Positions 40,138 through 55,413 of a stretch of DNA of 64,000 bases are shown here, in pieces. Every line of letters starts with the position of its first letter. The first letter of the stretch is position 1. Under the pieces are notes generated by a model that saw only the letters and a program-made list of their open reading frames with translations, searched no databases and had not been told where the DNA came from. The stretch covers positions 33,567 to 97,566 of the forward strand of contig CAZTJT010000010.1 in NCBI GenBank assembly GCA_964613785.1, in the 5' to 3' direction. Source of the DNA: an uncultured Rikenellaceae bacterium. Its GTDB lineage: Bacteria > Bacteroidota > Bacteroidia > Bacteroidales > VadinHA17. The position numbers were made by a program, and so were the translations under genes.

Positions 40138-40160
40138 GTTAAAAATTAATCATGCAACAT

Positions 40161-40463
40161 TTATTTCTTCTTCCTGAACATCTCAAGCATCCTGTCAGTT
40201 ACAACAAACCCCCCGACCACATTAAGGGTTCCCAGAACAACTGCAAGAAATCCAAGAATAAGTGATCCGGTTGTTTCAGCATGTCCAAGTACAATAATTG
40301 CTCCTATTATCACAACTCCGTGTATCGCGTTTGCTCCAGACATTAGAGGGGTGTGAAGTATTGCCGGCACATTGCTTATTACTTCAATACCAAGAAATAT
40401 TGAAAGGACCACTATAAACACAGCTTCCCTGTGCTGCAGGAAAAATTCGGATAACTGCTCCAT
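40161..40463 (-). CDS. pntA: NAD(P) transhydrogenase subunit alpha part 2 (membrane)
   Basis: 100-aa three-helix membrane protein (TPLMSGANAIHGVVIIGA) located between alpha-1 and beta. Confidence 0.9.
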   Translation of the reverse strand: MEQLSEFFLQHREAVFIVVLSIFLGIEVISNVPAILHTPLMSGANAIHGVVIIGAIIVLGHAETTGSLILGFLAVVLGTLNVVGGFVVTDRMLEMFRKKK

Positions 40464-40470
40464 AATCAGG

Positions 40471-41820: not shown

Positions 41821-44001
41821 TCAATTTTCATTGTAACCGCCGAAAAAATTCTTAAGCCAAAAATTGTGTGCTTCGTTTAGAGAATGTACAGCTTTTTTAC
41901 CTCCCCAGCCGTGCCTTCCATTTGGATAAAGCATGAACTGAAAAATTTTTCCTTCATCCTGAAGTTTAGAAATCAGATATATGGAATTCTGCATATGAAC
42001 ATTATCGTCCATGTCGCCATGGTTAAGATAAAGCATTCCTTTATAATTCCCTGCCCATTCCACTGCTGAACCATCTTTATAGCCTTCGGGATTTTCCTGA
42101 GGTGTGTCCATATACCTTTCCGTGTATATATTGTCATACAGCCGATAGTCAGTAACAGAGGAACCTGCAAATCCATGAGTCCAGTAACCGGCTCCCTTTG
42201 TAAGCGCCAGACAGGTCAAATATCCGCCGTAAGAACTGCCTGTGATGCCCATTCTGGAACCATCTGTAAAAGGTTTCTCCAAAAGCCATTTCACTGCATC
42301 CTCATAGTCTAAAATCTCCCACTTTCCGAGAGAACGGTACAAATAATCAAGACCCCTCCTGCCAAAATGACCAGATCCGCGATGGTCAACAGTAAAGGTT
42401 ATTATGCCATTCTGTGAGTACCAGGATGGGCTATTCCCCATCCAACGGTTGCCTGTAACATTTTTTGAATTTGGCCCTCCGTATATTGTGAACACCACCG
42501 GATATTTCTTGTTCTCGTCAAAATTCAAAGGGAAGGTTAGTATTGCAGGCATATCAAACAGACCATCTGACGTCTTGATTCTCACCATCTCTGACCTGGA
42601 ATTAACAGACGGATCAAATTCGGGATTGTCAAACCTGTGTATCTCCCGTACCATTCGCCCACGCCTGTCGTAGGCAATTATGGCACCCGGATCCGACAAA
42701 TTGTTCCAGGTATCAATGAAATAGCTGCCTCCGGGTGAAACACTTACCTCATGGGTTCCTTCACCTTTTGATATCTGAAGAAGGTTTTTCCCGTCAAAAC
42801 CCACTCTGAAAAAGTGATTATCAGTTGATTCCGGTCCGGTTCCATAGAAATAAACCAGTCTTGCAGCTTCATCAACCCGCTCAATTCTGTTTACCCTCCA
42901 GTTGAAATCCGTAATCTGTGATATCAGCCTTCCATCCCATGAATAATAATACAGATTTTCCCAATCTGTCATATAGCTTCTAAGAATAAATCCTGTCCCG
43001 TTTTTCATCACATATACATCTTCAAAGAACTCCACCCAGGTTTTTCTTGATTCACTGTAAATTTCCCTGTAATTACCTGTCAAAGGATCTGCGAGAATGA
43101 TTTTGATCTCATTCTGATCCCTGTTAACTATCTGTACGGCGAGATTCTTACTGTCGGGAGACCAGAACGGCCATGCTATGTACTGGTCGATGTTGTTATC
43201 AGTCTTAACCCAGGTAGTCTTACCGGTTGAAAGATCTGCAATACCCATTTTGACACGGGGATTGGGATCGCCTGCTTTCGGATATGGCACCTGCTCAAGG
43301 ATTCCGTGTATACCATCAGGCTCATCAAGACGATTCAGGGTGAATACAGGCACTTCTGTTTCATCAGTCCGGAGATATGCGATCCTGCTTCCGTCGGGAG
43401 AAAACCAAAAGGCTGCATATTTGCTCTGTCTCCCCAGTATCTCCTCCATGTAAACCCAGGAGGAATAACCATTATATATTCTATCAGAAGCATCTGATGT
43501 GAGCCTTATTTCTTTATTGTTCTCAAGATCATAAACAAAAAGATCCTTGTTCCTGGTATAGGCAATTTTCTTCCCGTCATCCGAGAAACGTGGATTTACT
43601 TCTGGCAAATCGTCATTTGTCAGCTGACGGAGTTCCGTATTGCCGATTTCGAAATAAAACAGGTCGTTATCCTTTATTAATACAGCCCTTTTTCCGTCTG
43701 AACTTATTGGGTCATCATAACCAAGAGATATCCCGTCAGGCAATAGCCCGGAAAGAACCTCCCGTAATGTCTTTTCAGGTGTCACAACAACACTTTTCCC
43801 TGTTCTGATATCCACATTTTTCAACACAGGATTCCGATTTTCATCATATGTCTGAATAAGATAATGGGAGTCATCTCTCCATCCTGTTACCCTGACCTGA
43901 TTCAGGTTACGGGGATGCATCTGGCCTGCTGCCGATGAACCGGATAAAAGAAACAAAAACAGAATAATTTCTGAGAGCCATGAGGTGAGAATTTCTTTCA
44001 T
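41821..44001 (-). CDS. Dipeptidyl-peptidase IV (S9B serine peptidase)
   Basis: 726 aa. Signal peptide, a DPP-IV N-terminal beta-propeller region, and the catalytic GSSYGGY nucleophile elbow with downstream D and H residues (GDMDDNVH, GRHGW). Confidence 0.9.
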   Translation of the reverse strand: MKEILTSWLSEIILFLFLLSGSSAAGQMHPRNLNQVRVTGWRDDSHYLIQTYDENRNPVLKNVDIRTGKSVVVTPEKTLREVLSGLLPDGISLGYDDPISSDGKRAVLIKDNDLFYFEIGNTELRQLTNDDLPEVNPRFSDDGKKIAYTRNKDLFVYDLENNKEIRLTSDASDRIYNGYSSWVYMEEILGRQSKYAAFWFSPDGSRIAYLRTDETEVPVFTLNRLDEPDGIHGILEQVPYPKAGDPNPRVKMGIADLSTGKTTWVKTDNNIDQYIAWPFWSPDSKNLAVQIVNRDQNEIKIILADPLTGNYREIYSESRKTWVEFFEDVYVMKNGTGFILRSYMTDWENLYYYSWDGRLISQITDFNWRVNRIERVDEAARLVYFYGTGPESTDNHFFRVGFDGKNLLQISKGEGTHEVSVSPGGSYFIDTWNNLSDPGAIIAYDRRGRMVREIHRFDNPEFDPSVNSRSEMVRIKTSDGLFDMPAILTFPLNFDENKKYPVVFTIYGGPNSKNVTGNRWMGNSPSWYSQNGIITFTVDHRGSGHFGRRGLDYLYRSLGKWEILDYEDAVKWLLEKPFTDGSRMGITGSSYGGYLTCLALTKGAGYWTHGFAGSSVTDYRLYDNIYTERYMDTPQENPEGYKDGSAVEWAGNYKGMLYLNHGDMDDNVHMQNSIYLISKLQDEGKIFQFMLYPNGRHGWGGKKAVHSLNEAHNFWLKNFFGGYNEN

Positions 44002-44098: not shown

Positions 44099-44106
44099 TA
44101 AATTTG
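44099..44106 (+). promoter_or_regulatory. Candidate -7 promoter box (TAAATTTG) for the M14 carboxypeptidase gene
   Basis: Exact TAnnTTTG match 61 nt upstream of the ATG at 44167. The tracked TTG start (44104) lies inside this box, which argues for the ATG at 44167. Confidence 0.3.
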
Positions 44107-44166
44107 ATTTTCCTCTGTACTATATATATATTATCTTTGGCCGTTATCAACAGAATCTTTATTTTG

Positions 44167-46689
44167 ATGAATAAAATTGTTTTTATTTTTTTAATCAGCT
44201 TCCCTGTTTTAATTAAAGTTTATAGTCAACCCGTTAAATCGCCCGACGAATTCCTTGGATATGAACTAGGGGACCAGTTCACTTTCCACCACCGGGCTGT
44301 TGAGTATTTCAGATACGTCGCAGATAAATCGGAAAGTGCAGAATATATTGAGTATGGCAAATCTTATGAAGGAAGGCCGCTTGGTGTGTGCGTTGTATCG
44401 GAAGAGGACAATTTGAAAAAGTTAGAGGAACTCAGAAATAATAATCTAATCCTTTCCAGACTGATCGCTGGTGATTTAACCGGAAGGCAGCTCCCCATTG
44501 TATGGCTTGCATACAATGTTCATGGAAATGAATCAGCAGGGATGGAAGCTGCTATGAAAACACTTTACACACTCGTTACACGCTCTTATCCCGGCACAGA
44601 CCTGTGGCTTAAATCATGCATAATAATAATTGACCCCTGCCAGAATCCTGACGGACGCGATCTTTATACATACAGGTACAGGAATTCTCAGAATCTTAAT
44701 CCCAATTCTGATGATAATTCCTGGGAACACCATCAGGGCTGGCCCGGAGCACGAACCAACCACTATTTCTTTGACCTGAACCGCGACTGGACCTGGCAAA
44801 CCCAGGTTGAAACAGTAAATAGAATAGACCTTTATCAGAAATTCATGCCGCATGTTTATGCTGATTTTCATGAAATGGGAGCTGAATCAACATTTTTCTT
44901 CGGACCTGGAGCAGAACCATGGCACGAAGTAATAACACCCTGGCAACATGAGTTTCATGTGATCATGGGACGGGGAAATGCAGCAATGTTTGATGAGAAA
45001 TTAAAACTCTATTTCACTAAGGAGACTTTCGACCTTTTCTGTCCAAGTTTTGGCGATACCTGGCCCCTTTTTAACGGTGCCGCAGGTTTTACTTTCGAAC
45101 AGGGCGGTGGCGGATTTGCAGGACTGGCATTGAAACAATCATCCGGAGATACGCTCACTCTTAAAAAAAGGATCGATGGACATTTCACAGCATCGATGGC
45201 TACTCTGAAAGTATCATTTGAAAACAGGGAAAAGCTGATATCTGAATTCAACAGTTTCTTCAGGGAGAATGCGGATAATCCTCGATTTAAATACAAATCA
45301 ATAATAATAAAGGGATCAAATGATAAAAGCAGCCTGAGTGACCTGCTTCAACTTCTTCAAAGGAACCAGATATGCTATACCCTGGCGGGAAATACCGGGA
45401 AGAAATACAAAGGATTCGATTATTCTGCAAATGCTGAAGGAGAAACAACCATTGAAAAGGGCGATATTCTTGTAAGTGCTTACCAGCCACAGTCAAGGTT
45501 AGTTGAGGTTCTTTTTGAGCCCGACAGCAGGGTCACCGATTCGCTGAGTTATGATCTCACAGCATGGGCTCTGCCATACGCTTATAACATCAAAGCATTT
45601 GCCTTGCCAGAAAAGATAATACCAGCTGGTAAAGTACCTGAAAACTCCATTTCCGGAAATAAACCTTTAGACTACAAACCCTATGCCTACCTGGTGAACT
45701 TCACAGGCTTTAACGAAATGAAGTTTATTACTGACCTTCAGAAGAAAAATATTAAAGTAAGATATTGTATCAAACCGTTTACATTTTTCGGAACAAACTT
45801 TACCAGAGGAAGTTACATAATAGCAGCTGCTGACAACCGTTATTTCTCCGGCAATTTCGATGCAACTGTTGCCGAGGCTGCCGACAGGTTCCATGTAGAG
45901 TTGAAACCGGTTACAACCGGGCTTGCCGATAAGGGAAAAGACCTTGGATCAGACTACTCTACACTTATGAAGAAAAAGAAATTAGCCCTGCTTTGCGGAG
46001 AAGGAACCTCAGCAGGAGCTGTTGGTGAATTATGGTATTACTTCGAGAGGGAACTTGATTATCCTGTTTCACTGATCAATACATCAAATGTTGACCAGAT
46101 AGGCCTTAGTGAATATGATGTAATTATCCTTGCTAACGGAAATTACTCTAAACTGAATGATACTATCATCGATTATGTAAAAAGAGGAGGAAGAGTAATT
46201 GCACTTGAAAATGCCATATCTATCTTTTCGTCTGAAAAATCCACATCACTTCATAAAGCTGTCGAAACCAGGAACGAGGAGAAAAAAACAACAGAAAGTA
46301 AGGAAAAAATTGATGACAATTCGCTATTGAGAAGATATGAGGACGAAAGGCGACATCTGCTTTCAGAGAGATCGGCAGGAAGCATATACCGGGTAAAGAT
46401 AGACAGCAGCCACCCTTACGCCTTCGGACTGGGTAACGAATGGTTCGTCATGAAAAAAAACTCAGCCTATCCATTCCTGGATAAAGGCAGCAACATAGGA
46501 TATATATTGGAAAGCGATCCCGTAGCCGGATTTGCAGGCTATAAATTCAGAAAACAAGTTAAAAACACCCTTGTTATCGGCTCTGAGTATTTAGGCAAGG
46601 GAGAAGTGATCTACATCACCGAGGATCCCTACTTCAGGGCATTCTGGAAAAGCGGAAGAATACTCCTCTGGAATGTCATTTTCAGGTAA
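44167..46689 (+). CDS. Secreted M14-family zinc carboxypeptidase, large multidomain form
   Basis: The ATG at 44167 gives signal peptide MNKIVFIFLISFPVLIKVYSQ. Zinc-binding HGNES (HxxE) and a later ADFHEMG segment fit the M14 fold. Confidence 0.85.
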   Translation: MNKIVFIFLISFPVLIKVYSQPVKSPDEFLGYELGDQFTFHHRAVEYFRYVADKSESAEYIEYGKSYEGRPLGVCVVSEEDNLKKLEELRNNNLILSRLIAGDLTGRQLPIVWLAYNVHGNESAGMEAAMKTLYTLVTRSYPGTDLWLKSCIIIIDPCQNPDGRDLYTYRYRNSQNLNPNSDDNSWEHHQGWPGARTNHYFFDLNRDWTWQTQVETVNRIDLYQKFMPHVYADFHEMGAESTFFFGPGAEPWHEVITPWQHEFHVIMGRGNAAMFDEKLKLYFTKETFDLFCPSFGDTWPLFNGAAGFTFEQGGGGFAGLALKQSSGDTLTLKKRIDGHFTASMATLKVSFENREKLISEFNSFFRENADNPRFKYKSIIIKGSNDKSSLSDLLQLLQRNQICYTLAGNTGKKYKGFDYSANAEGETTIEKGDILVSAYQPQSRLVEVLFEPDSRVTDSLSYDLTAWALPYAYNIKAFALPEKIIPAGKVPENSISGNKPLDYKPYAYLVNFTGFNEMKFITDLQKKNIKVRYCIKPFTFFGTNFTRGSYIIAAADNRYFSGNFDATVAEAADRFHVELKPVTTGLADKGKDLGSDYSTLMKKKKLALLCGEGTSAGAVGELWYYFERELDYPVSLINTSNVDQIGLSEYDVIILANGNYSKLNDTIIDYVKRGGRVIALENAISIFSSEKSTSLHKAVETRNEEKKTTESKEKIDDNSLLRRYEDERRHLLSERSAGSIYRVKIDSSHPYAFGLGNEWFVMKKNSAYPFLDKGSNIGYILESDPVAGFAGYKFRKQVKNTLVIGSEYLGKGEVIYITEDPYFRAFWKSGRILLWNVIFR

Positions 46690-46972: not shown

Positions 46973-46980
46973 TATATTTG
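46973..46980 (+). promoter_or_regulatory. Candidate -7 promoter box (TATATTTG) for the 47035.. operon
   Basis: Exact TAnnTTTG match 55 nt upstream of the first ATG of the cluster. No clean -33 TTTG at the canonical spacing. Confidence 0.3.
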
Positions 46981-47034: not shown

Positions 47035-47379
47035 ATGATAATCAGTGAGATAGCAAACAAGATAAACGGCCGGATAGTCTGTTGTGAGAACAAAGTGTCA
47101 GGTGAGGTGGAATATGCCTTTTCCTCGGATCTAATGAGCGATGTGTTAAAAGTAGAAAAGGAAAATGTTTTGCTGATTACAGGTCTGGCAAATCTTCAGG
47201 CAATAAGGACGTCCGAAATGTCTGACATAAATTGTATCGTTTTTGCACGGAACAAAAAAATTAACAGCGATATTATAAAACTCGCAAAAGAGAATGGGAT
47301 AATCCTAATAGAGAGTCCTTTCTCCGTTTTCCGGATCTCAGGAGAATTATACAAAGCAGGAATTAAGCCGCTCTTTTGA
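47035..47379 (+). CDS. DRTGG-domain-like protein (paralogue 1)
   Basis: 114 aa. The pattern SDLMSDVL...LLITGLANLQAIRTSE...IVFARN...ENGIILIESPFSVFRISGELY fits the small DRTGG-type proteins found next to [FeFe] hydrogenases. Confidence 0.75.
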   Translation: MIISEIANKINGRIVCCENKVSGEVEYAFSSDLMSDVLKVEKENVLLITGLANLQAIRTSEMSDINCIVFARNKKINSDIIKLAKENGIILIESPFSVFRISGELYKAGIKPLF

Positions 47380-47381
47380 AA

Positions 47382-47798
47382 ATGCAGTACAGGTATAAAA
47401 TAGCAGGTGGTGATTTTTCAAATGCCGGGTCAGTGGCAAGTTCTGTGAAAAAGACTTTACGTCAACTCAACATTGACCATTACATTTCAAAAAGGGTAGT
47501 TATAGCTCTGTATGAAGGAGAGGTGAATGTGGTAGCGCATGCCTTTTCAGGAATAATCGATGTTGATATTGATACTGAAAGAATAAAAATCGTGATAACA
47601 GATAAAGGCCCAGGGATACCTGATATTGCAAAAGCAATGGAGGAAGGTTATTCAACAGCCTCGCCCCAGGTCAGGGAAATGGGATTCGGGGCGGGAATGG
47701 GTCTTTCGAATATGAAAAAGAACAGCGATTCAATGCAGATTTACAGTGAGCCAGGGCAAGGAACCGTGGTTGAACTGACAACATATCTTAATAAATAA
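47382..47798 (+). CDS. RsbW/SpoIIAB-like anti-sigma-type Ser/Thr kinase (GHKL ATPase fold)
   Basis: About 138 aa from the ATG at 47382; the tracked start at 47376 is a TTG. N-box EGEVNVVAHA, G1 DKGPGIPD, G2 GFGAGMGLSNM. No HisKA/DHp domain. Confidence 0.8.
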   Translation: MQYRYKIAGGDFSNAGSVASSVKKTLRQLNIDHYISKRVVIALYEGEVNVVAHAFSGIIDVDIDTERIKIVITDKGPGIPDIAKAMEEGYSTASPQVREMGFGAGMGLSNMKKNSDSMQIYSEPGQGTVVELTTYLNK

Positions 47799-47800
47799 TA

Positions 47801-49189
47801 ATGAAGGACAACGATCAGCATAATGAATTTCATCATGCTTTAAAAATGCACGAGCATTTATGCACAGGTTGCACTCATTGCATGATTGTTTGTCCAACAA
47901 AAGCCATCCGTATCAGAAACGGCAAGGCAATTATTATTGCCAGCAGATGTGTTGACTGCGGTGAGTGTTACAGGGTCTGCCCTGTATCTGCAATAGGTGT
48001 CGAACAGGATGACCTTGTAATGATACTCAAGTTCCCGGTCAGGGTAATCCTGATCCCCAGCGTATTTTTAGGCCAGTTTTCGCATAAGATTCCTTTCGCA
48101 TCGATCTGCAGGGCGCTTGCCAGAATCGGATTCACCCATGTTTATCTGGTGGAGAATACTGTCGATATGGTGCTGGACTCATACGATGAATATGAAGGGA
48201 GAAATGAAAACCGTCCTTTGATATCTTCTTTTTGCCCGGCTGTCGTAAGGCTGGTACAGGTAAGGTTCCCGTCGCTTGTTGAAAATATTATGAAGGTGAA
48301 TCCACCGATCGATATGTCGGCATTCTATTATAAAGACCATCTAAGGAGTTCTGGCATCCCCGAACAAAACATAGGATTGTTTTATGCAACTCCGTGCGCA
48401 GCAAAAATTGCAGCTATTAAAAGTCCCGTCGGGGAAATTGAGTCTGTTGTGACAGGAGTTGTAAACATCAACTTTCTCTATAACAAGGTACGTCAACTCC
48501 TTCATAATGATGAGACAACCATTGGATTGCCGGAAACGGACGATCTATTGAGTTCCAGGGGTATATTGTGGAGCCTTACACGCGGGGAATCGGCACATCG
48601 TAAAAAACGGTCATTGTCGGTAGATGGTATAAGAAATGTTACCGAGATCCTGGAAAGTGTTGAAAATGAAAAACTTGAAAATATCGATTTCCTGGAATTA
48701 AGAGCATGTGATGAAGGATGTGCCGGAGGAATACTCCTGCCAGGTAATCGCTTTGTAACTGTTGAAAGGCTAAGAAAACTTGCATCAGATTATTCACAAA
48801 AAGAAACAGACAGCAAAAGAAAACTCTCTGACGGTTTTATCAATCTTAAAGAGCAAAGCTTCCTGGGTAAAATCGAATCGAGGAATATCGAAAAACTCGA
48901 TGAAAACTTGTTTGCGGCCATGAAGAAGATGAAAAGAAAACGCAGAATAATGTGCTTTCTTCCGGGCTTCGATTGTGCAGCCTGTGGTGCACCCGACTGT
49001 CAGACACTTGCAGAAGATGTAGTTAAGGGCTATGGACAACTGTCGCATTGCGTCTTCATGCAGCAGCAGATGGTAAACCAGAAACTTCTGAGCCAGAAAA
49101 AAGCATACAGCATTACCGAGGAAGTATGGGGAGCTGACAGACTGAAGAAAAATTGCAATAAAATAGGAGCAGAAGATGAAAACATCTGA
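47801..49189 (+). CDS. Sensory-type [FeFe]-hydrogenase homologue (2x[4Fe-4S] ferredoxin domain + H-cluster domain + C-terminal Cys-rich Fe-S motif)
   Basis: 462 aa. CTGCTHCMIVCP and CVDCGECYRVCP form a ferredoxin-like domain. H-cluster motif equivalents are SSFCPAV (canonical TSCCP), ATPCAAK (MPCxxK) and ELRACDEGCAGG (ExMxCxxGCxxG). The C-terminal CFLPGFDCAACGAPDC resembles the RnfB/CdhE N-terminal putative Fe-S cluster motif. Confidence 0.85.
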   Translation: MKDNDQHNEFHHALKMHEHLCTGCTHCMIVCPTKAIRIRNGKAIIIASRCVDCGECYRVCPVSAIGVEQDDLVMILKFPVRVILIPSVFLGQFSHKIPFASICRALARIGFTHVYLVENTVDMVLDSYDEYEGRNENRPLISSFCPAVVRLVQVRFPSLVENIMKVNPPIDMSAFYYKDHLRSSGIPEQNIGLFYATPCAAKIAAIKSPVGEIESVVTGVVNINFLYNKVRQLLHNDETTIGLPETDDLLSSRGILWSLTRGESAHRKKRSLSVDGIRNVTEILESVENEKLENIDFLELRACDEGCAGGILLPGNRFVTVERLRKLASDYSQKETDSKRKLSDGFINLKEQSFLGKIESRNIEKLDENLFAAMKKMKRKRRIMCFLPGFDCAACGAPDCQTLAEDVVKGYGQLSHCVFMQQQMVNQKLLSQKKAYSITEEVWGADRLKKNCNKIGAEDENI

Positions 49190-49511
49190 AATAGTTAATC
49201 GGTTGAATCTTGACATAATTGCCGGAGGTAACGGTATGCAACGGGATGTCACCGGAGGCTATGTATCCGATCTTCTAAGTGACGTTATCGGGCATGCAGC
49301 TGAAGGTAACATCTGGATAACGCTGCAAACACATCAGAACATTGTTGCGGTGGCCTCCCTGAAAGAACTGTCCGGAATTATTATTGTAAAGGGCTCAACG
49401 CCCGATGCAGATACAATTAAGAGGTGTAACGAAGAGAATATACCCCTGCTGTTAACCGATTTTGATACATTCAGGATCACCGGGGAATTATATAATTTAC
49501 TTCTAAAATGA
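49176..49511 (+). CDS. DRTGG-domain-like protein (paralogue 2)
   Basis: 111 aa. It shares SDL(L/M)SDV at residues 31-37 and the C-terminal F.I(S/T)GELY with the 47035 protein. Its start overlaps the upstream gene by 14 nt. Confidence 0.75.
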   Translation: MKTSEIVNRLNLDIIAGGNGMQRDVTGGYVSDLLSDVIGHAAEGNIWITLQTHQNIVAVASLKELSGIIIVKGSTPDADTIKRCNEENIPLLLTDFDTFRITGELYNLLLK

Positions 49512-50242
49512 AATTATTCCGGGCCGATCTGCATATACACACCTTGCTGTCACCATGCGGCGAATTGAGCATGAGCCCGGTTAATATAATTAATATGGCA
49601 ATCCGCAAAAAACTTGACATTATAGGAATAAGCGATCATAATACCACAAGGCAGAGCAGCCTTGTCAGAATGCTCGCTGAAAAGAAAGGTTTATTCGTGC
49701 TGCGGGGAGCTGAGATAACAACTAGAGAGGAAGTACATTGCCTTGCTTTCTTTGAAGATAATGACACCATCCTCCGCTTTCAGGAATTGCTTGACGAACA
49801 TCTGCCCAACATACCAAATAATCCACTGCTGTTTGGTGATCAGATTGCCGTCGACGAAAATGAGAACATAATTTATACTGAGAAAAAATTACTGACGAAT
49901 GCCGTAAATCTGTCGCTTGAGGAACTGGAAGCATGGGTACATGGCAATGAGGGAATTTTTATTCCCGCTCACATCGACAGAATGAAAAACAGTCTTTTCA
50001 GCCAGCTCGGATTTCTTCCAGAAAATCTGAAAGCAGATGCACTTGAAGTTTCGAAAAAAAGTTCACCGGATCTTTTCATGAAAAGCCACCCTGAGGTCAG
50101 CAACTATACTCTGATTATAAATTCGGATTCCCATTTTCCCGAGTCTATAGGAACAGCTTATAACAATTTCCTGATGGAAAAGGCAACTTTTAAGGAAATT
50201 CAAATGGCATTGGCATGTATAAACGGCAGGAAAATATGCTGA
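49508..50242 (+). CDS. PHP-domain metal-dependent phosphoesterase
   Basis: 244 aa. ADLHIHTLLSPCG and IGISDHNT are the N-terminal PHP His/Asp motifs, followed by later IPAHIDR and NSDSH. ATGA overlap with the upstream gene. Confidence 0.85.
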   Translation: MKLFRADLHIHTLLSPCGELSMSPVNIINMAIRKKLDIIGISDHNTTRQSSLVRMLAEKKGLFVLRGAEITTREEVHCLAFFEDNDTILRFQELLDEHLPNIPNNPLLFGDQIAVDENENIIYTEKKLLTNAVNLSLEELEAWVHGNEGIFIPAHIDRMKNSLFSQLGFLPENLKADALEVSKKSSPDLFMKSHPEVSNYTLIINSDSHFPESIGTAYNNFLMEKATFKEIQMALACINGRKIC

Positions 50243-50243
50243 T

Positions 50244-50798
50244 ATGTTAACACTGGCATTAAATATACTTGATATTGTGCAAAATTCCATAAGAGCCGAG
50301 GCGTCGGAGATAGAAATTGGAGTAACTGAATCTGCCACCGGCGACATAATGGAGATTACCGTAAAGGATAACGGTATTGGTATGCCTCATGATCTTTTAT
50401 CCAGGGTTACGGACCCGTTTGTAACTACGAGAAATAAGAGACGGATTGGACTGGGCATTCCTCTTTTAAAATATCATGCCAACTTGGCCGGCGGAGATCT
50501 TATGATTGATTCGCGTGAAGGTTATGGAACTATTGTGAATGTCACACTAAAACTTTCCCATCCCGACAGGCAACCACTTGGCGACTTGGCGGGAATGATG
50601 ACAATTCTCATGTCGTCCAACCCGGGAATTGACTTTCTTTACACCCACAAAACCGACAGAGGAAAGTACCGTTTTTCATCAAAGGAGGTCAGGCAATATC
50701 TTGGCATTGATCACTTCAGCAACTTTTCGCTGCTAACAGATATAAAGGAAATGTTAAATAATAACCTGAGGGATATAGGGGCTTCAGGTTTTAATTAA
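50244..50798 (+). CDS. Histidine-kinase-like ATPase (GHKL) protein without phospho-acceptor domain
   Basis: 184 aa. N-box IVQNSIRAEA, G1 DNGIGMP, G2 IGLGIPLL. It starts 1 nt after the PHP gene stop. No DHp, receiver or HTH. Confidence 0.75.
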   Translation: MLTLALNILDIVQNSIRAEASEIEIGVTESATGDIMEITVKDNGIGMPHDLLSRVTDPFVTTRNKRRIGLGIPLLKYHANLAGGDLMIDSREGYGTIVNVTLKLSHPDRQPLGDLAGMMTILMSSNPGIDFLYTHKTDRGKYRFSSKEVRQYLGIDHFSNFSLLTDIKEMLNNNLRDIGASGFN

Positions 50799-50896
50799 AG
50801 TAAATGATTTATTTCTTTTGAAAATGGCTAACATTAGGATAATTAGAATAATATTATATAACTTAATCAATTTGAATTAACTAAATAATAAGTGAA

Positions 50897-51298
50897 ATGT
50901 CACAGATCAAATCTCTCGCCGATCTCAGAAAGAAACGCGAAGAAATCAGGACAGGAATGGATATCAGGATCAAGGCTATTGATCCTGAAAATCATGTTCA
51001 GATAAAAGTTGCAATGGCAACATGCGGAATTGCCGCAGGAGCAAAGGGAATAATGGAATTTTTTGTTGAACAACTCGACAGGAGGAATATTCAGGGTGTT
51101 GTTACACAGACAGGATGTATGGGTTATTGCTATGCTGAACCTACTGTTGAAATTACTCTTCCGGGAAAGGAACCGGTGGTTTATGGTTATGTCGATCTGA
51201 AAAGAGCCGATCAGATTATAGAAAAATACATTAAGGAGGGTGAGCTTATCGACGGCATCATCCCGGTAAATTATGAAACGATAGATTCAAAAGAATAG
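50897..51298 (+). CDS. Thioredoxin-like [2Fe-2S] ferredoxin domain protein
   Basis: 133 aa. The Cys pattern MATCGIAAG...GCMGYCYAEP is typical of the stand-alone 2Fe-2S protein encoded in bifurcating hydrogenase operons. Confidence 0.85.
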   Translation: MSQIKSLADLRKKREEIRTGMDIRIKAIDPENHVQIKVAMATCGIAAGAKGIMEFFVEQLDRRNIQGVVTQTGCMGYCYAEPTVEITLPGKEPVVYGYVDLKRADQIIEKYIKEGELIDGIIPVNYETIDSKE

Positions 51299-51309
51299 GA
51301 GGATAGCAA

Positions 51310-53103
51310 ATGTCAAAATACAGCATGCATCTTCTGGTATGTGGCGGGACAGGCTGTCATGCTTCTGAAAGCGATGCAATTTTGTGGAATTTAAGGGATG
51401 AGCTGGAGGCCAAAGGATTGTCGGATAAAGTCCAGGTGATCCTTACCGGCTGTTTCGGATTTTGTGAAAAAGGTCCCATTGTTAAAGTGATGCCCGACAA
51501 TACATTCTATGTTCAGGTAAAACCTGATGATGCACAGACAATTGTCGAAGAACACATTATAAAGGGAAGAAAAATTACCAGGCTTCTCTATCATGATCCC
51601 ACAACAAAAGAACCGATAGGGGATTCAAAACATATGGGATTTTTCAAGAAGCAGCTCAGGATAGTGCTCAGGAACTGCGGATTTATCAACCCTGAGAATA
51701 TTGACGAGTATATTGCCAGAGACGGGTATGAAGCTCTCGGAAAGGCACTCTCAGAAATGACCCCTGAGCAGGTTATTAAAGTCATAAAGGATTCAGGTCA
51801 GAGAGGCCGTGGAGGAGCAGGATTTCCTACAGGATTCAAGTGGGAAATAGCCAGCAGGAACAAGTCTGATCAGAAGTATGTAGTCTGCAACGCCGACGAA
51901 GGAGACCCGGGTGCTTTCATGGACAGGTCGGTTCTTGAAGGTGATCCTCATTCGGTCCTTGAGGCAATGGCAATATGCGGTTACAGTATCGGTGCATCAC
52001 AGGGTCTTATTTACGTACGTGCCGAATATCCTCTTGCAATTCAACGACTGCAGATAGCTATTAAACAGGCACATGAGTACGGACTTCTGGGTAAAAATAT
52101 TCTTGGAACAGATTTCAGTTTTGACATTACGCTCAGATTCGGCGCAGGCGCATTCGTATGCGGTGAAGAAACGGCACTTATACATTCAATGGAGGGGCTC
52201 AGGGGCGAACCTACAATCAAACCCCCATTCCCTGCTGAATCAGGATTCCGTGGAAAACCCACCAATGTGAATAATGTTGAGACTTTTGCTGCAATTCCGG
52301 TAATACTGCTTAAAGGTGCAGAATGGTACAGTCGAATCGGAACCGAAAAATCAAAGGGGACCAAAGTGTTCGCCCTTGCCGGCAAAATAAACAATGTGGG
52401 CCTGATTGAAGTACCGATGGGAACCACACTCAGGGAAGTCATTTTCGAGATCGGGGGAGGTATAAGAAACGGCAAGAAATTCAAAGCTGTACAGACAGGA
52501 GGGCCCTCAGGAGGCTGCCTTACAGAAAAACATCTTGATGTGCCAATCGATTTTGACAATCTTGTGGCTGCCGGATCAATGATGGGCTCTGGAGGGATGA
52601 TCGTCATGGATGAAGATGACTGCATGGTTTCCGTAGCAAAATATTACCTCGACTTTACAGTTGAAGAATCGTGCGGAAAATGTTCTCCATGCCGTATAGG
52701 TAACAAGAGATTGCATGAGCTTCTCAATCATATATGCGAAGGAAAGGGAAATATCAGGGATCTTGACAGATTGCGTAATATGAGCCTGGTTATCAAGGAC
52801 ACATCTCTTTGCGGACTGGGACAGACATCTCCGAATCCGGTCCTGTCGACACTCGATAATTTCATGGATGAGTATATCTCGCATGTGAGGGATAAGAAAT
52901 GTCCGGCCGGTAAGTGTAAGGATCTAATGGAATATTATATTATTCCTGAAAACTGCGTCGGTTGCACGGCATGTGCAAGGGTATGCCCTGTAAATGCAAT
53001 ATCAGGTGAAAGGAAAGAAATTCATTACATTAATCCTGAGGTCTGCATAAAATGCGGAGCGTGCAAGGAGAAATGTAAGTTTGATGCAATAATTATCAGA
53101 TAA
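51310..53103 (+). CDS. hydB: NuoF-like flavoprotein subunit of a HydABC-type (electron-bifurcating-type) [FeFe] hydrogenase
   Basis: 597 aa. N-terminal 2Fe-2S Trx-like module (LLVCGGTGCHA), an FMN/NADH-binding 51-kDa core (GRGGAGFPTGFKWE, ESCGKCSPCR) and a C-terminal 2x[4Fe-4S] domain (CVGCTACARVCP, CIKCGACKEKC). Confidence 0.93.
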   Translation: MSKYSMHLLVCGGTGCHASESDAILWNLRDELEAKGLSDKVQVILTGCFGFCEKGPIVKVMPDNTFYVQVKPDDAQTIVEEHIIKGRKITRLLYHDPTTKEPIGDSKHMGFFKKQLRIVLRNCGFINPENIDEYIARDGYEALGKALSEMTPEQVIKVIKDSGQRGRGGAGFPTGFKWEIASRNKSDQKYVVCNADEGDPGAFMDRSVLEGDPHSVLEAMAICGYSIGASQGLIYVRAEYPLAIQRLQIAIKQAHEYGLLGKNILGTDFSFDITLRFGAGAFVCGEETALIHSMEGLRGEPTIKPPFPAESGFRGKPTNVNNVETFAAIPVILLKGAEWYSRIGTEKSKGTKVFALAGKINNVGLIEVPMGTTLREVIFEIGGGIRNGKKFKAVQTGGPSGGCLTEKHLDVPIDFDNLVAAGSMMGSGGMIVMDEDDCMVSVAKYYLDFTVEESCGKCSPCRIGNKRLHELLNHICEGKGNIRDLDRLRNMSLVIKDTSLCGLGQTSPNPVLSTLDNFMDEYISHVRDKKCPAGKCKDLMEYYIIPENCVGCTACARVCPVNAISGERKEIHYINPEVCIKCGACKEKCKFDAIIIR

Positions 53104-54893
53104 TGGGAAATGTGATGGAAACAGTAAAACTTACTATTGACAATAAGGAAATTGAGGTACCTAAAGGTACTACAATATATAAGGCTGCTAAACAGCTGGG
53201 TATAGAGATCCCCACCCTTTGCTACCTCCACCTTGAAGATCTTGACATCGAGAACAAACCGGGAGGATGCCGCATTTGTGTTGCTGAAGTACAGGGCAGG
53301 CGTAATCTTGCGCCAACATGCTCTACCAACTGTGAAAACGGAATGGTTGTGAAAACACATACCACCAGAGTACTTAATGCACGTCGTACGGTCATGGAGT
53401 TTATTCTTTCCGACCATCCGACTGACTGTCTTGTTTGTCCTAAATCGGGAACTTGCGACCTTCAGAATATGGCTCACCTTCTTGGCATAAGGGAAATTCC
53501 TGGTTCAGAATATGCTGAAATGTCGACATATAAATCTGATACCTCCCCATCCATTGTCAGGGATCTCGACAAATGCATAATGTGCAGAAGATGCGAGATG
53601 ATGTGTAATGAGGTTCAGACTGTCGGGGCATTGTCAGCCGTAAACCGTGGATTCATGGCAGCAGTGGCTCCCGCCTTTGAGCAAAACCTTGAACATTCAA
53701 CATGCACTTACTGCGGCCAATGTGTCGCCGTATGCCCTACCGGTGCACTAACTGAAGTAGATCATACTCCTGAAGTACTCAGGGCACTCGCCGATCCGAC
53801 AAAAACAGTAATAGTTCAGACTGCACCGGCCGTACGAGCAGCCCTTGGAGAAGCATTCGGGATGGAGCCGGGTACACTGGTCACAGGTAAAATGGTTGCG
53901 GCATTAAGAGTACTCGGATTTGATTATGTCTTCGATACTGACTTTGCAGCTGACCTGACAATCATGGAAGAAGGCACAGAACTTCTTGACAGGATCAAAA
54001 GGCACCTTAATGGCGATACCACAGCCAGGCTACCTATACTTACATCGTGCTGCCCCGGCTGGGTTAATTTCTTTGAAGAATATTTCCCTGACCTCAAGGA
54101 CGTTCCTTCAACTGCCAAATCACCCCAGCAGATGTTCGGGGCAATCGCAAAATCATACTTTGCCCGGAAGATCAATATAGACAGAAAGGATCTGGTTGTA
54201 GTCTCAATAATGCCATGCCTTGCAAAAAAATACGAGTGCCAGAGAGATGAATTCTCAATTGACGGGAACAGGGATGTTGACTTTTCGATATCCACCAGAG
54301 AGCTGGCTGCATTTATTAAGCAGGCAAATATCGACCTGAACAATCTGCAGGATGAAGAATTCGACGCACCACTCGGCGAATCGACCGGTGCCGGTGTAAT
54401 TTTTGGTACCACCGGGGGTGTGATTGAAGCCGCATGCAGAACCGCTTATGAGATCTACACAGGCAAAAAGCTTGAAAAAATAGAATTCACCGAGCTCAGA
54501 GGGCTTGAAGGTGTCCGCTCAGCTACTATCGATTTCAACGGACTTCCGCTAAATATCGGAATAGCTCACGGCCTTGGAAATGCAAGAAAACTTCTGGATG
54601 ATGTACGCTCGGGCAAATCACAGTTCCATGCCATTGAGGTTATGGCCTGCCCCGGAGGTTGTATAGGAGGTGGAGGACAACCGGTACACCATGGTAACTC
54701 CGAAATAATAAAAGCCCGCGCTGCAGCAATTTATAAGGAAGACAGTAAAAAACCACTGCGCAAGTCGCACGAGAATCCATTTATTATAAAGCTTTACGAA
54801 GAGTTTCTTGGTCATCCCAACAGCGAAAAAGCACACCATCTGTTACATACCAGATATTTCGACAAGAAAAAGAAAATCATTGTAAAACAGTAG
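53103..54893 (+). CDS. hydA: [FeFe] hydrogenase catalytic subunit (M3-type, with C-terminal small-subunit-like tail)
   Basis: 596 aa. N-terminal 2Fe-2S (CRICVAEV), a His-ligated and two ferredoxin-type clusters, and H-cluster motifs TSCCPGW (54042..), MPCLAKKYE and EVMACPGGCIGGGGQP. Its ATG overlaps the hydB stop (TAATG). An alternative ATG at 53115 is possible. Confidence 0.95.
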   Translation: MGNVMETVKLTIDNKEIEVPKGTTIYKAAKQLGIEIPTLCYLHLEDLDIENKPGGCRICVAEVQGRRNLAPTCSTNCENGMVVKTHTTRVLNARRTVMEFILSDHPTDCLVCPKSGTCDLQNMAHLLGIREIPGSEYAEMSTYKSDTSPSIVRDLDKCIMCRRCEMMCNEVQTVGALSAVNRGFMAAVAPAFEQNLEHSTCTYCGQCVAVCPTGALTEVDHTPEVLRALADPTKTVIVQTAPAVRAALGEAFGMEPGTLVTGKMVAALRVLGFDYVFDTDFAADLTIMEEGTELLDRIKRHLNGDTTARLPILTSCCPGWVNFFEEYFPDLKDVPSTAKSPQQMFGAIAKSYFARKINIDRKDLVVVSIMPCLAKKYECQRDEFSIDGNRDVDFSISTRELAAFIKQANIDLNNLQDEEFDAPLGESTGAGVIFGTTGGVIEAACRTAYEIYTGKKLEKIEFTELRGLEGVRSATIDFNGLPLNIGIAHGLGNARKLLDDVRSGKSQFHAIEVMACPGGCIGGGGQPVHHGNSEIIKARAAAIYKEDSKKPLRKSHENPFIIKLYEEFLGHPNSEKAHHLLHTRYFDKKKKIIVKQ

Positions 54894-54930
54894 TATAGAA
54901 CCTTCATGGTCAATAATAAAATCCATTGCT

Positions 54931-55413
54931 ATGTCAAGTATTAAAATAGAATTAAGACAGGAAGATATCGACAAAATCAAAGAAATATGCGCTTCCTTTA
55001 ATAAAGATCCGCAGGAACTCATCAATGTCTTACATGGCTGCCAGGAACATTTCGGATACCTTCCGGCAGAAATCCAGGAGGTAATATCCTCTGAGCTGGG
55101 TATTCCTGTTGCAAAAATCTACGGAGTTGTTACATTTTATTCGTTCTTTACAATGACTCCAAGGGGAAAACATCCCATAAGCATCTGTATGGGAACAGCA
55201 TGCTATGTAAGAGGTGCCGAAAAAGTGCTTGAAGAATTCAAAAAAGAACTACATCTTCAGGTGGGGCAAACGACAAAAGACGGTAAATTCTCACTTTCGA
55301 GCCTCAGATGCGTCGGCGCCTGCGGACTTGCTCCCGTGGTGCTCGTAGGAGATAAAACCTATGGCAGGGTAGCTCCCGATGATGTTAAGAATATAATCAA
55401 GGAATATGATTAG
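54931..55413 (+). CDS. hydC: NuoE-like [2Fe-2S] subunit of the HydABC-type hydrogenase
   Basis: 160 aa. CMGTACYVRG...CVGACGLAP is the NuoE/24-kDa 2Fe-2S pattern. Confidence 0.9.
   Translation: MSSIKIELRQEDIDKIKEICASFNKDPQELINVLHGCQEHFGYLPAEIQEVISSELGIPVAKIYGVVTFYSFFTMTPRGKHPISICMGTACYVRGAEKVLEEFKKELHLQVGQTTKDGKFSLSSLRCVGACGLAPVVLVGDKTYGRVAPDDVKNIIKEYD

What the first reader, a model, noticed from the sequence alone, without database searches (positions are those of the whole stretch)
47801..49189. Hydrogenase homologue with a degenerate proton-relay position (SSFCP instead of TSCCP) and an RnfB/CdhE-like C-terminal Cys cluster
The structural HydA in the same window has canonical TSCCPGW, MPCLAKKYE and EVMACPGGCIGGGGQP motifs. 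The 47801 protein keeps the cluster-ligating cysteines (FCP at 48233.., TPCAAK, ELRACDEGCAGG). It replaces the first Cys of TSCCP with Phe and lacks the GGGQP tail. That Cys is the proton-transfer residue in catalytic enzymes, and changes there are what I would expect of a sensor rather than a turnover enzyme.

Known sensory [FeFe] hydrogenases that I recall carry a PAS domain. This protein has none. It ends instead in CFLPGFDCAACGAPDC (48953..49000), resembling the putative Fe-S motif at the N-terminus of RnfB and of the corrinoid protein CdhE. That may be an alternative signal-relay or redox-input module.
Basis: partly seen in the sequence, partly recalled or inferred. Interest (0 to 1): 0.65.

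Follow-up and report, generated by a model that had tools for sequence, protein, structure and literature searches.

The report
Group D sensory-type [FeFe] hydrogenase (HydS)

Summary
ORF 47801-49189 (+) encodes a 462-aa protein with two N-terminal [4Fe-4S] motifs, an H-cluster domain that keeps all four cluster cysteines, Phe144 where catalytic enzymes have the proton-relay Cys (CpI C299), no PAS domain, and a C-terminal Cx2Cx4Cx16C motif (Pfam PF04060).

This is the published group D / M2e "HydS" class. The characterised model is Thermoanaerobacter mathranii TamHydS, which is 38% identical to this protein over its full length (E 2e-94). The protein also has:
- the group-D-specific alternative proton path (E263, E299, T260, D275);
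- Thr at the M353 position;
- the conserved charged residues around the clusters;
- the classic position five genes upstream of a trimeric HydABC hydrogenase, among RsbW-like ATPase, DRTGG and PHP genes.

Phe is not exceptional. In 133 family sequences (this protein, TamHydS and 131 representatives at 50% identity) the site is A41, S24, F20, T14, Y6, and never Cys. Close Bacteroidales relatives all carry F or Y.

The C-terminal cluster does not replace PAS, because group C enzymes have both. In TamHydS it binds a [4Fe-4S] cluster that does not respond to H2.

Two modest leads remain: recurrent fusions of HydS to the neighbouring DRTGG and ATPase proteins, and a coupled F/Y144-R/K301 active-site subtype.

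Verdict: new member of a known kind, low interest.

The parts
47801..49189 (+). hydS: group D (M2e) putative sensory [FeFe]-hydrogenase, 462 aa. N-terminal 2x[4Fe-4S] motifs (C21/24/27/31 and C50/53/56/60). H-domain with H-cluster cysteines C145, C199, C303, C307. C-terminal Cx2Cx4Cx16C (C392/395/400/417).
   Evidence: dN/dS 0.04-0.10 against orthologues
48230..48232 (+). Codon TTT for F144, the position of the proton-relay Cys (CpI C299, TamHydS A137).
   Evidence: column composition
48587..48589 (+). Codon for E263, equivalent to TamHydS E252, the proposed group D proton-relay residue next to the ADT amine. The rest of the proposed path is E299 (48695-48697), T260 (48578-48580) and D275 (48623-48625).
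   Evidence: alignment; PMC10407848; conservation
48701..48703 (+). Codon for R301, at the CpI M497 / TamHydS L291 position flanking the diiron site. R/K here co-occurs with F/Y at 144.
48974..49051 (+). C-terminal Cx2Cx4Cx16C [4Fe-4S] motif (C392...C417), within the PF04060 match at residues 387-419. It includes E405/D406, the equivalents of the TamHydS E392/D393 interdomain contact residues.
   Evidence: PMC13104023
47035..47379 (+). DRTGG-domain protein 1 (114 aa), first gene of the cluster.
   Evidence: conserved upstream of HydS in L002-L004, L006-L009; fused N-terminally to HydS in P0159, P0187 and L005
47376..47798 (+). RsbW/SpoIIAB-like HATPase_c protein (140 aa), a putative Ser/Thr kinase. 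It overlaps the previous gene by 4 nt and ends 2 nt before hydS.
   Evidence: fused to HydS in P0164
49176..49511 (+). DRTGG-domain protein 2 (111 aa); overlaps hydS by 14 nt.
   Evidence: fused C-terminally to HydS in 9 representative clusters
49508..50242 (+). PHP-domain protein (244 aa), a putative phosphoesterase/phosphatase.
   Evidence: PHP 23.5 bits, below the 26.4 cut-off; PHP_C 22.1, above the 21.3 cut-off; conserved in L001-L005, L008, L009, L011
50244..50798 (+). Second HATPase_c protein (184 aa), resembling a histidine-kinase ATPase domain.
50897..55413 (+). Structural genes of the trimeric NADH/ferredoxin-type hydrogenase: small thioredoxin-like [2Fe-2S] protein (50897-51298), HydB/NuoF-like (51310-53103), HydA group A with canonical TSCCP (53103-54893), HydC/NuoE-like (54931-55413).
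   Evidence: HydA passes NCBIfam 'NADH-dependent [FeFe] hydrogenase, group A6' (902.8 bits, cut-off 765)

Best explanation
The gene encodes a group D (M2e) [FeFe]-hydrogenase, HydS. This is a slow, high-affinity H2-activating protein that most likely reports H2 (or H2-linked redox state) to a small phospho-signalling module controlling the downstream HydABC hydrogenase.

Shown here: it has the complete H-cluster cysteine set, three accessory [4Fe-4S] motifs, the group D signature residues, strong purifying selection, and a conserved ten-gene arrangement.

Inferred from TamHydS biochemistry: H2 is split at a normal H-cluster. The proton leaves via E263 -> E299 -> T260 -> D275 instead of via the Cys299 route, which is blocked here by F144, S127 and M164. 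Turnover is slow and the reduced state (Hred) is stabilised.

Inferred from gene order and gene fusions: the H2-dependent state of HydS is read out through direct contact with the flanking DRTGG proteins and the RsbW-like ATPase. The PHP phosphoesterase and the second ATPase complete a kinase/phosphatase switch that sets the expression or activity of HydABC.

The C-terminal [4Fe-4S] domain probably has a structural or docking role, packing against the N-terminal ferredoxin domain via R37/R39 and E405/D406, rather than acting as a redox relay.
For: Class assignment:
- Pfam architecture is Fer4x2 + Fe_hyd_lg_C + PF04060, with no PAS.
- The protein is 38% identical and colinear with TamHydS over 429 aa, E 2e-94. 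I rebuilt the TamHydS sequence from the supplement of PMC13104023; all 20 residue numbers quoted in the papers match it.
- TamHydS residues map as A137->F144, S191->T197, E252->E263, E289->E299, S249->T260, D265->D275, D378/C379->D391/C392, E392/D393->E405/D406, R30/R32/K35/R42->R37/R39/K42/R49.
- PMC10407848 states that this proton path is not conserved in groups A-C, apart from the Glu at TamHydS position 289.
- The protein falls far below the NCBIfam cut-offs for catalytic [FeFe] models (88 vs 450; 81 vs 406).
- Published group D lists already include Bacteroidota such as Parabacteroides, Odoribacter and Proteiniphilum.

The gene is functional: dN/dS is 0.04-0.10, and at least 120 close relatives of 434-471 aa share the architecture.

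Context:
- Gene order is identical in Bacteroidales/Rikenellaceae MAGs L001-L004.
- The same modules surround distant family members L005 and L006-L011.
- In Firmicutes, M2e genes lie at position n and HydABC at n+5..n+7, as here (PMC3561251).
- Genes are tightly packed: gaps of -4, 2, -14, -4 and 1 nt.

Fusions: 9 representative clusters are HydS-DRTGG, 2 are DRTGG-HydS and 1 is HATPase-HydS. In each case the fused domain matches the corresponding flanking gene of the window.

Biochemistry of the class is taken from PMC8163306, PMC10407848, PMC11803613 and PMC13104023.
Against: - No group D enzyme has been shown to sense H2 in vivo; the sensory role is a hypothesis even for TamHydS.
- No phosphorylation of any partner has been shown, and DRTGG has no established signalling role.
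- TamHydS does catalyse H2 turnover in both directions, so a slow catalytic role cannot be excluded.
- This protein differs from TamHydS next to the diiron site (F144 for Ala, R301 for Leu). Transfer of the biochemical properties is therefore uncertain, and it has not been shown that this subtype takes up the [2Fe] subcluster.
- My AlphaFold model was poor (mean pLDDT 61.5), so no geometry could be checked.
- In one distant relative (L006/L007) the DRTGG-ATPase-HydS triad is not next to any hydrogenase.
Confidence: 0.8

Rival explanations
1. It is a working but slow hydrogenase or an extra electron-transfer subunit that cooperates metabolically with HydABC, for example a ferredoxin-linked H2-uptake or H2-evolution bypass. 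It is not a regulator.
For: [quoted passage not shown] The protein carries three accessory [4Fe-4S] clusters, more wiring than a pure sensor seems to need. It lies in the same gene cluster as HydABC.
Against: TamHydS has a specific activity of about 0.1 umol H2 per mg per min and needs an overpotential (PMC10407848 abstract). The gene lies among ATPase/kinase-like and phosphoesterase genes and is recurrently fused to them, not to redox partners. A 98-nt gap separates the six-gene block containing hydS from the four structural genes. The regulatory block diverges faster than HydABC between relatives: 75-91% vs 89-97% identity between the window and L002.
Confidence: 0.12
2. In this F/Y144-R/K301 subtype the pocket no longer holds a normal [2Fe] subcluster. 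The protein would then be a hydrogenase-like Fe-S protein that senses cellular redox state (ferredoxin/NADH) rather than H2, comparable to Nar1/CIAO3-type hydrogenase-like proteins.
For: A bulky Phe and an Arg sit at the two positions (CpI C299 and M497) that flank the ADT bridgehead. No enzyme of this subtype has been characterised.
Against: All four H-cluster cysteines, including the bridging one, are invariant. K202 (CpI K358, which binds the distal CN-), E263 and E299 are retained, and W257 (the family's conserved residue at the CpI F417 position) is also present. The subtype shares the same gene context with HydABC. Selection is strong. F/Y occurs scattered over several clades among A/S/T sequences, which suggests the site is simply permissive.
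Confidence: 0.06
3. It is a decaying paralogue of HydA with no function.
For: Loss of the catalytic Cys and of the GGGQP tail.
Against: dN/dS is 0.04-0.10. Length and domain order are conserved in hundreds of clusters across phyla. There are 160 invariant columns among 39 relatives. It is only 23% identical to the window's HydA, so it is an ancient separate lineage.
Confidence: 0.01

Closest known systems
TamHydS, Thermoanaerobacter mathranii group D (M2e) putative sensory [FeFe]-hydrogenase (PMC8163306, PMC10407848, PMC11803613, PMC13104023)
   Same: Same domain order and similar length (435 vs 462 aa); 38% identity end to end. No Cys at the C299 position. A hydroxyl residue at the M353 position. 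The E252/E289/S249/D265 proton path is conserved. The Cx2Cx4Cx16C C-terminal cluster and its E-D contact pair are conserved. Encoded upstream of a trimeric group A hydrogenase next to a histidine-kinase-like ATPase.
   Different: F144 instead of Ala. R301 instead of Leu at the M497 position. I65 instead of K58 near an N-terminal cluster. H416 instead of D403 next to the last cluster Cys. An extra Cys (C385) and a longer C-terminal tail. Bacteroidales host rather than a thermophilic Firmicute. No AraC-family gene was found next to it (TamHydS is flanked by one).
Group C (M2f) sensory [FeFe]-hydrogenases, e.g. Thermotoga maritima TmHydS and Ruminococcus albus HydS
   Same: N-terminal 2x[4Fe-4S], H-domain lacking C299, C-terminal Cx2Cx4Cx16C cluster, and location near bifurcating hydrogenase genes and kinases (PMC8163306; PMC3561251).
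   Different: Group C enzymes carry a PAS domain after the C-terminal cluster; this protein has none. Group C lacks the E252-type proton path.
Group A catalytic [FeFe]-hydrogenases (CpI; the window's own HydA at 53103-54893)
   Same: H-domain fold (Foldseek probability 1.00 against CpI, DdH and HydABC). Four H-cluster cysteines, K358 equivalent, E282 and R286 equivalents.
   Different: C299->F, E279->S, S319->M, M353->T, M497->R; no GGGQP tail; no small-subunit-like C-terminus; 23% identity; far below the NCBIfam group A cut-off.
PF04060 Fe-S domain of RnfB and of the corrinoid/iron-sulfur protein large subunit (AcsC/CdhE)
   Same: Same Cx2Cx4Cx16C spacing and LPGxxCGxCGxPxC core. It aligns to 9eri_B residues 40-75, 8ahx_B 35-72 and 4djd_C 11-47.
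   Different: Here the domain lies at the C-terminus of a hydrogenase domain. Only the roughly 35-residue domain is shared, not the proteins.

Membership tests
Group D / M2e [FeFe]-hydrogenase (HydS) | Domain order: N-terminal 2x[4Fe-4S] ferredoxin domain, then H-domain, then C-terminal Cx2Cx4Cx16C; monomeric size of about 430-460 aa | tested here: met
   Pfam; cysteine positions; definition in PMC8163306
Group D / M2e [FeFe]-hydrogenase (HydS) | No PAS domain (this separates D from C) | tested here: met
   No PAS hit at E<=0.01. Only 45 residues follow the last cluster Cys.
Group D / M2e [FeFe]-hydrogenase (HydS) | Proton-relay Cys (CpI C299) and most of the group A proton path absent | tested here: met
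   F144, S127, M164; only the E282 and R286 equivalents are kept
Group D / M2e [FeFe]-hydrogenase (HydS) | Group-D-specific alternative proton path E252-E289-S249(S/T)-D265 (TamHydS numbering) | tested here: met
   E263, E299, T260, D275; criterion from PMC10407848
Group D / M2e [FeFe]-hydrogenase (HydS) | M353 replaced by a hydroxyl donor (Ser/Thr) | tested here: met
   T197; criterion from PMC8163306
Group D / M2e [FeFe]-hydrogenase (HydS) | Full-length homology to the characterised member and placement among PAS-less relatives | tested here: met
   E 2e-94 against TamHydS. All long top-150 representatives checked lack PAS, and the full-length ones (131) have the C-terminal motif. In a neighbour-joining tree the protein falls inside this family with HydA as outgroup. 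No reference sequences of groups B, C, E-G were available for a formal tree.
Group D / M2e [FeFe]-hydrogenase (HydS) | Encoded upstream of a trimeric bifurcating group A hydrogenase, next to kinase-like genes | tested here: met
   PMC3561251; PMC8163306
Group D / M2e [FeFe]-hydrogenase (HydS) | Binds an H-cluster; low turnover, low Km for H2, CO tolerance | not testable with these tools
   Needs expression, artificial maturation, FTIR/EPR and activity assays
Group A catalytic [FeFe]-hydrogenase | TSCCPxW with the relay Cys, MPCxxKxxE, ExMxCxxGCxxGGGQP | tested here: not met
   SSFCPAV, TPCAAKIAA, ELRACDEGCAGGILLP; 80.8 bits against the 405.95 cut-off of TIGR02512
Group C / M2f sensory [FeFe]-hydrogenase | C-terminal PAS domain after the Cx2Cx4Cx16C cluster | tested here: not met
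PF04060 putative Fe-S cluster domain (RnfB / CdhE type) | Four-Cys motif Cx2Cx4Cx16C scoring above the Pfam gathering threshold | tested here: met
   36.1 bits against a cut-off of 23; alignments to RnfB and CFeSP chains. [4Fe-4S] binding has been shown for the TamHydS equivalent (C379A variant; PMC13104023).

The most novel reading that the evidence does not exclude
Two related readings are not excluded.

1. The missing output domain of PAS-less group D hydrogen sensors is the DRTGG domain. HydS would act in a physical complex with two small DRTGG proteins and an RsbW-like ATPase. These are separate genes here and are fused to HydS in about 9% of representative clusters (12 of 133). H2 status would then be relayed by a kinase/PHP-phosphatase switch to HydABC.

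2. The Bacteroidales-type proteins form a distinct active-site subtype, with an aromatic residue at the C299 site paired with Arg/Lys at the M497 site. Their H-cluster tuning would differ from that of TamHydS.

I found no paper linking DRTGG to hydrogenases.
Probability: 0.4. Interest if true: 0.5.

Novelty: new member of a known kind. Interest (0 to 1): 0.2.

Why it matters
As a classification result it matters little. Group D HydS genes upstream of bifurcating hydrogenases have been catalogued for over a decade and studied biochemically since 2019-2020, and Bacteroidota members are already on published lists.

It has some value as a pointer. How group D proteins signal without a PAS domain is still open. 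The latest work argues against a redox role for the C-terminal cluster. The conserved DRTGG-ATPase-HydS triad and its gene fusions name concrete partners to test.

The F/Y144 + R/K301 subtype, common in gut and rumen Bacteroidales, is an uncharacterised natural variant of the second coordination sphere of the H-cluster. It sits in organisms where H2 partial pressure governs fermentation balance.

Tried and rejected
- AlphaFold2 with 39 close homologues gave a poor model (mean pLDDT 61.5; C-terminal domain below 50). It served only for a fold search, which returned [FeFe]-hydrogenases as expected. I could not assess distances around F144 or R301, or the packing of the C-terminal domain.
- I expected the longer relatives (515-607 aa) to be PAS-containing group C proteins for use as an outgroup. 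They turned out to be DRTGG or ATPase fusions, so no formal group C vs group D tree was made.
- The genome-contig scan found only 5 loci, none identical to the window. The source organism is therefore known only as a Bacteroidales/Rikenellaceae-like bacterium.
- Rfam found nothing in the window.
- The sigma-70 promoter and terminator scans were no better than shuffled sequence.
- Literature searches for DRTGG or PHP together with hydrogenase or HydS found nothing relevant. A search for the A-G classification paper also failed.
- A sequencing error at F144 (TTT vs TGT) was considered and rejected, because relatives conserve F/Y.
- The pseudogene reading was rejected on dN/dS.
Full report
**1. 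The observation**

The ORF at 47801-49189 (+) is real. It starts at an ATG two bases after the stop of the preceding gene and encodes 462 aa.
- SSFCP at residues 142-146. F144 is the TTT codon at 48230-48232.
- TPCAAK at 197-202.
- ELRACDEGCAGG at 299-310, followed by ILLPG instead of the GGQP tail.
- CFLPGFDCAACGAPDC at residues 385-400, which is nt 48953-49000.

The HydA gene in the same window (53103-54893) carries the canonical TSCCPGW, MPCLAKKYE and EVMACPGGCIGGGGQP motifs.

F144 aligns with the first Cys of TSCCP in three independent alignments: HMMER against solved hydrogenases, BLASTP against the window's HydA and MAFFT.

Pfam finds two 4Fe-4S ferredoxin motifs (16-65), Fe_hyd_lg_C (92-310), the PF04060 "putative Fe-S cluster" domain (387-419; 36.1 bits, cut-off 23) and no PAS domain. 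The C-terminal stretch aligns to the N-termini of RnfB (9eri_B, 8ahx_B) and of the corrinoid/Fe-S protein large subunit (4djd_C, 2h9a_A) with identical Cys spacing.

The family-wide ligand set is C392, C395, C400 and C417 (Cx2Cx4Cx16C).

**2. What it is**

The literature describes exactly this architecture as the M2e subclass, or group D, of [FeFe]-hydrogenases. [quoted passage not shown] Its genes are often in one operon with a group A hydrogenase (PMC8163306). [quoted passage not shown]

The model enzyme is TamHydS from Thermoanaerobacter mathranii. I rebuilt its 435-aa sequence from the codon-optimised CDS printed (with scanning errors) in the supplement of PMC13104023. All 20 residue numbers quoted in the papers fall on the stated residues.

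The window protein aligns with TamHydS end to end: 38% identity over 429 aa, E 2e-94. The residue mapping is:

| TamHydS | This protein | Role |
|---|---|---|
| A137 | F144 | CpI C299 site |
| S191 | T197 | CpI M353 site; a hydroxyl residue is described as typical of M2e |
| L291 | R301 | CpI M497 site |
| E252, E289, S249, D265 | E263, E299, T260, D275 | proposed group D proton path |
| D378/C379 | D391/C392 | C-terminal cluster |
| E392/D393 | E405/D406 | interdomain contact |
| D403/C404 | H416/C417 | last cluster Cys and its neighbour |
| R30, R32, K35, R42 | R37, R39, K42, R49 | N-terminal domain |
| K58 | I65 | near an N-terminal cluster |

The E252/E289/S249/D265 path is stated not to be conserved in groups A-C, apart from the Glu at position 289 (PMC10407848).

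Of the group A proton path, C299, E279 and S319 are replaced (F144, S127, M164). The E282 and R286 equivalents remain (E130, R134).

NCBIfam scores the protein far below the cut-offs of the catalytic models (88 vs 450; 81 vs 406). The window's HydA passes the "NADH-dependent [FeFe] hydrogenase, group A6" model (903 vs 765). A Foldseek search with a mediocre AlphaFold model returns only [FeFe]-hydrogenases.

Table S6 of PMC13104023 lists 70 group D enzymes. It already includes Bacteroidota: Parabacteroides, Odoribacter, Alkaliflexus and Proteiniphilum.

**3. How unusual is the Phe?**

Not very. A search of 1.84 billion cluster representatives gave 300 relatives at E<=1e-30. I aligned 133 family sequences: this protein, TamHydS and 131 full-length representatives. 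All have the C-terminal motif. At the C299 column they read A41, S24, F20, T14, Y6, N5, L5, V4 and others. Cys never occurs.

The 120 closest relatives (at least 64% identity, 434-471 aa, annotated only as Bacteroidales/Bacteroidetes where named) read SSFCP (71) or SSYCP (44).

In a neighbour-joining tree the query sits in a clade of 11 representatives that are all F or Y. Other F/Y sequences are scattered elsewhere.

The site therefore behaves as one released from its group A function, which fits the relay having moved to the Glu at 263. The papers say the Cys is "mostly" exchanged to Ala. Phe/Tyr is simply the Bacteroidales flavour.

One detail may deserve attention. F/Y at 144 goes with Arg/Lys at 301, the M497 position on the other side of the ADT bridgehead: 18 of 26 against 20 of 107 (Fisher p 1.5e-6, not corrected for phylogeny). 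It also goes with Ile/Val instead of Lys at 65.

**4. Surroundings**

The gene is the third of ten closely packed same-strand genes:

| Gene | Coordinates |
|---|---|
| DRTGG protein 1 | 47035-47379 |
| RsbW/SpoIIAB-like HATPase | 47376-47798 |
| HydS | 47801-49189 |
| DRTGG protein 2 | 49176-49511 |
| PHP-domain protein | 49508-50242 |
| second HATPase | 50244-50798 |
| small thioredoxin-like [2Fe-2S] protein | 50897-51298 |
| HydB (NuoF-like) | 51310-53103 |
| HydA | 53103-54893 |
| HydC (NuoE-like) | 54931-55413 |

A 98-nt gap separates the second HATPase from the [2Fe-2S] gene. The other gaps are -4, 2, -14, -4, 1, 11, -1 and 37 nt.

The order is identical in four Bacteroidales/Rikenellaceae MAG loci. 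There the structural genes are 78-98% identical to the window, while the regulatory block has diverged more (57-91%).

Distant family members have the same parts:
- DRTGG-HATPase-HydS-x-PHP-NuoE-HATPase-Trx-HydB-HydA in L008 and L009.
- HATPase-HydS-DRTGG-HATPase in L010.
- HydS-DRTGG-PHP-HATPase followed by another redox complex in L011.
- A bare DRTGG-HATPase-HydS triad next to CheW in L006/L007.

In Firmicutes the M2e gene lies at locus n and HydABC at n+5..n+7 (Athe_1292/1297-1299, TTE0887/0892-0894, Cthe_0335/0340-0342). This is the same spacing as here.

**5. Gene fusions**

The longer relatives, which I expected to be PAS-bearing group C proteins, are instead fusions:
- Nine representative clusters carry a C-terminal DRTGG domain that matches the window's downstream DRTGG gene best.
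- Two carry an N-terminal DRTGG that matches the upstream one best.
- One carries an N-terminal RsbW-like ATPase.

A Clostridia MAG (L005) also has a DRTGG-HydS fusion, preceded by ATPase, DRTGG and PHP genes. These fusions argue that HydS works in physical contact with its neighbours. I found no paper connecting DRTGG with hydrogenases.

**6. How it most likely works**

Shown here: a conserved protein under strong purifying selection (dN/dS 0.04-0.10), with an intact H-cluster cysteine set, the K358 equivalent, three accessory cluster motifs and the group D signature.

Inferred from TamHydS:
- It binds a normal H-cluster and splits H2 slowly and with high affinity.
- Proton traffic goes through E263 rather than the Cys299 site.
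- The reduced H-cluster state is stabilised.

Inferred from context and fusions: the H2-dependent state is passed by protein contact to the DRTGG proteins and the RsbW-like ATPase. The PHP phosphoesterase and the second ATPase complete a switch that sets HydABC expression or activity.

Published data weigh against that. Group C enzymes have the same cluster plus PAS. In TamHydS the cluster is a [4Fe-4S] that H2 does not reduce, and converting it to [3Fe-4S] (C379A) barely changes catalysis. Its authors suggest a structural or docking role.

**7. Rivals**

- A slow metabolic hydrogenase or electron-transfer subunit is possible but fits the context less well.
- A redox sensor that has lost the [2Fe] site in the F/Y-R subtype cannot be excluded without spectroscopy. 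The retained ligands and relay residues argue against it.
- A decaying paralogue is excluded by the conservation.

**8. Verdict**

This is an ordinary, unstudied Bacteroidales member of a known and biochemically characterised class.

Novelty: new member of a known kind. Interest: low (0.2). Two small leads remain: the DRTGG/ATPase partnership and the F/Y144-R/K301 pocket subtype.

Noticed in passing
47035-47379, 47376-47798, 49176-49511; proteins P0138, P0157, P0200, P0214, P0221, P0247, P0255, P0257, P0262, P0159, P0187, P0164; L005 2976-4586: Relatives of HydS occur fused to a C-terminal DRTGG domain (9 representative clusters), an N-terminal DRTGG domain (2, plus L005) or an N-terminal RsbW-like ATPase (1). 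Each fused domain matches the corresponding flanking gene of the window. No paper linking DRTGG to hydrogenases was found.
   Followed up: partly
residues 144, 301 and 65 of the 47801-49189 protein (nt 48230-48232, 48701-48703, 47993-47995): An aromatic residue at 144 co-occurs with Arg/Lys at 301 (CpI M497 site) in 18/26 sequences against 20/107 of the rest. It also co-occurs with Ile/Val instead of Lys at 65 (TamHydS K58 site). This holds both in the query clade and in F/Y sequences elsewhere in the tree. It is not corrected for phylogeny.
   Followed up: partly
48953-48955 (C385) and 49046-49048 (H416): The close Bacteroidales relatives have a fifth Cys seven residues before the Cx2Cx4Cx16C motif. 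In this protein (and 2 other F/Y representatives) His replaces the Asp that is otherwise conserved next to the last ligand Cys. The effect on the C-terminal cluster is unknown.
   Followed up: no
L006 7161-9261 and L007 560-2660: In the representative nearest to TamHydS (P0136) the DRTGG-ATPase-HydS triad sits next to a CheW gene and no hydrogenase genes. The sensor module is therefore not always tied to HydABC.
   Followed up: no
L011 311-8645: A distant F-type HydS with DRTGG, PHP and ATPase genes is followed by NuoF-like, Fer2, polyferredoxin-like, FlpD and Oxidored_q6 genes. This suggests the module can be coupled to a different, possibly [NiFe]-type, redox complex.
   Followed up: no
47801-47881: Several database entries call this gene 27 codons shorter (435 aa, starting at M28). 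That start would remove C21, C24 and C27 of the first [4Fe-4S] motif. The 462-aa start at 47801 is the consistent one.
   Followed up: partly
46973-46980: The only TAnnTTTG match (Bacteroidetes-type -7 promoter box) in the 345-nt AT-rich spacer before the cluster lies 62 nt upstream of the first ATG (47035). The standard sigma-70 and terminator scans were no better than shuffled sequence.
   Followed up: no
50799-50896: A 98-nt gap separates the six-gene sensor/kinase block from the four hydrogenase structural genes, whereas all other junctions are -14 to +37 nt. It could hold an internal promoter or a regulatory site.
   Followed up: no
38689-41601 (-): A three-gene proton-translocating NAD(P) transhydrogenase (PntB, the 4TM piece of PntA, and the PntA dehydrogenase domain) lies a few kb upstream of the NADH-linked hydrogenase cluster. 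Between them are a DPP-IV-type S9 peptidase (41821-44001) and an M14 carboxypeptidase-like protein (44104-46689).
   Followed up: no
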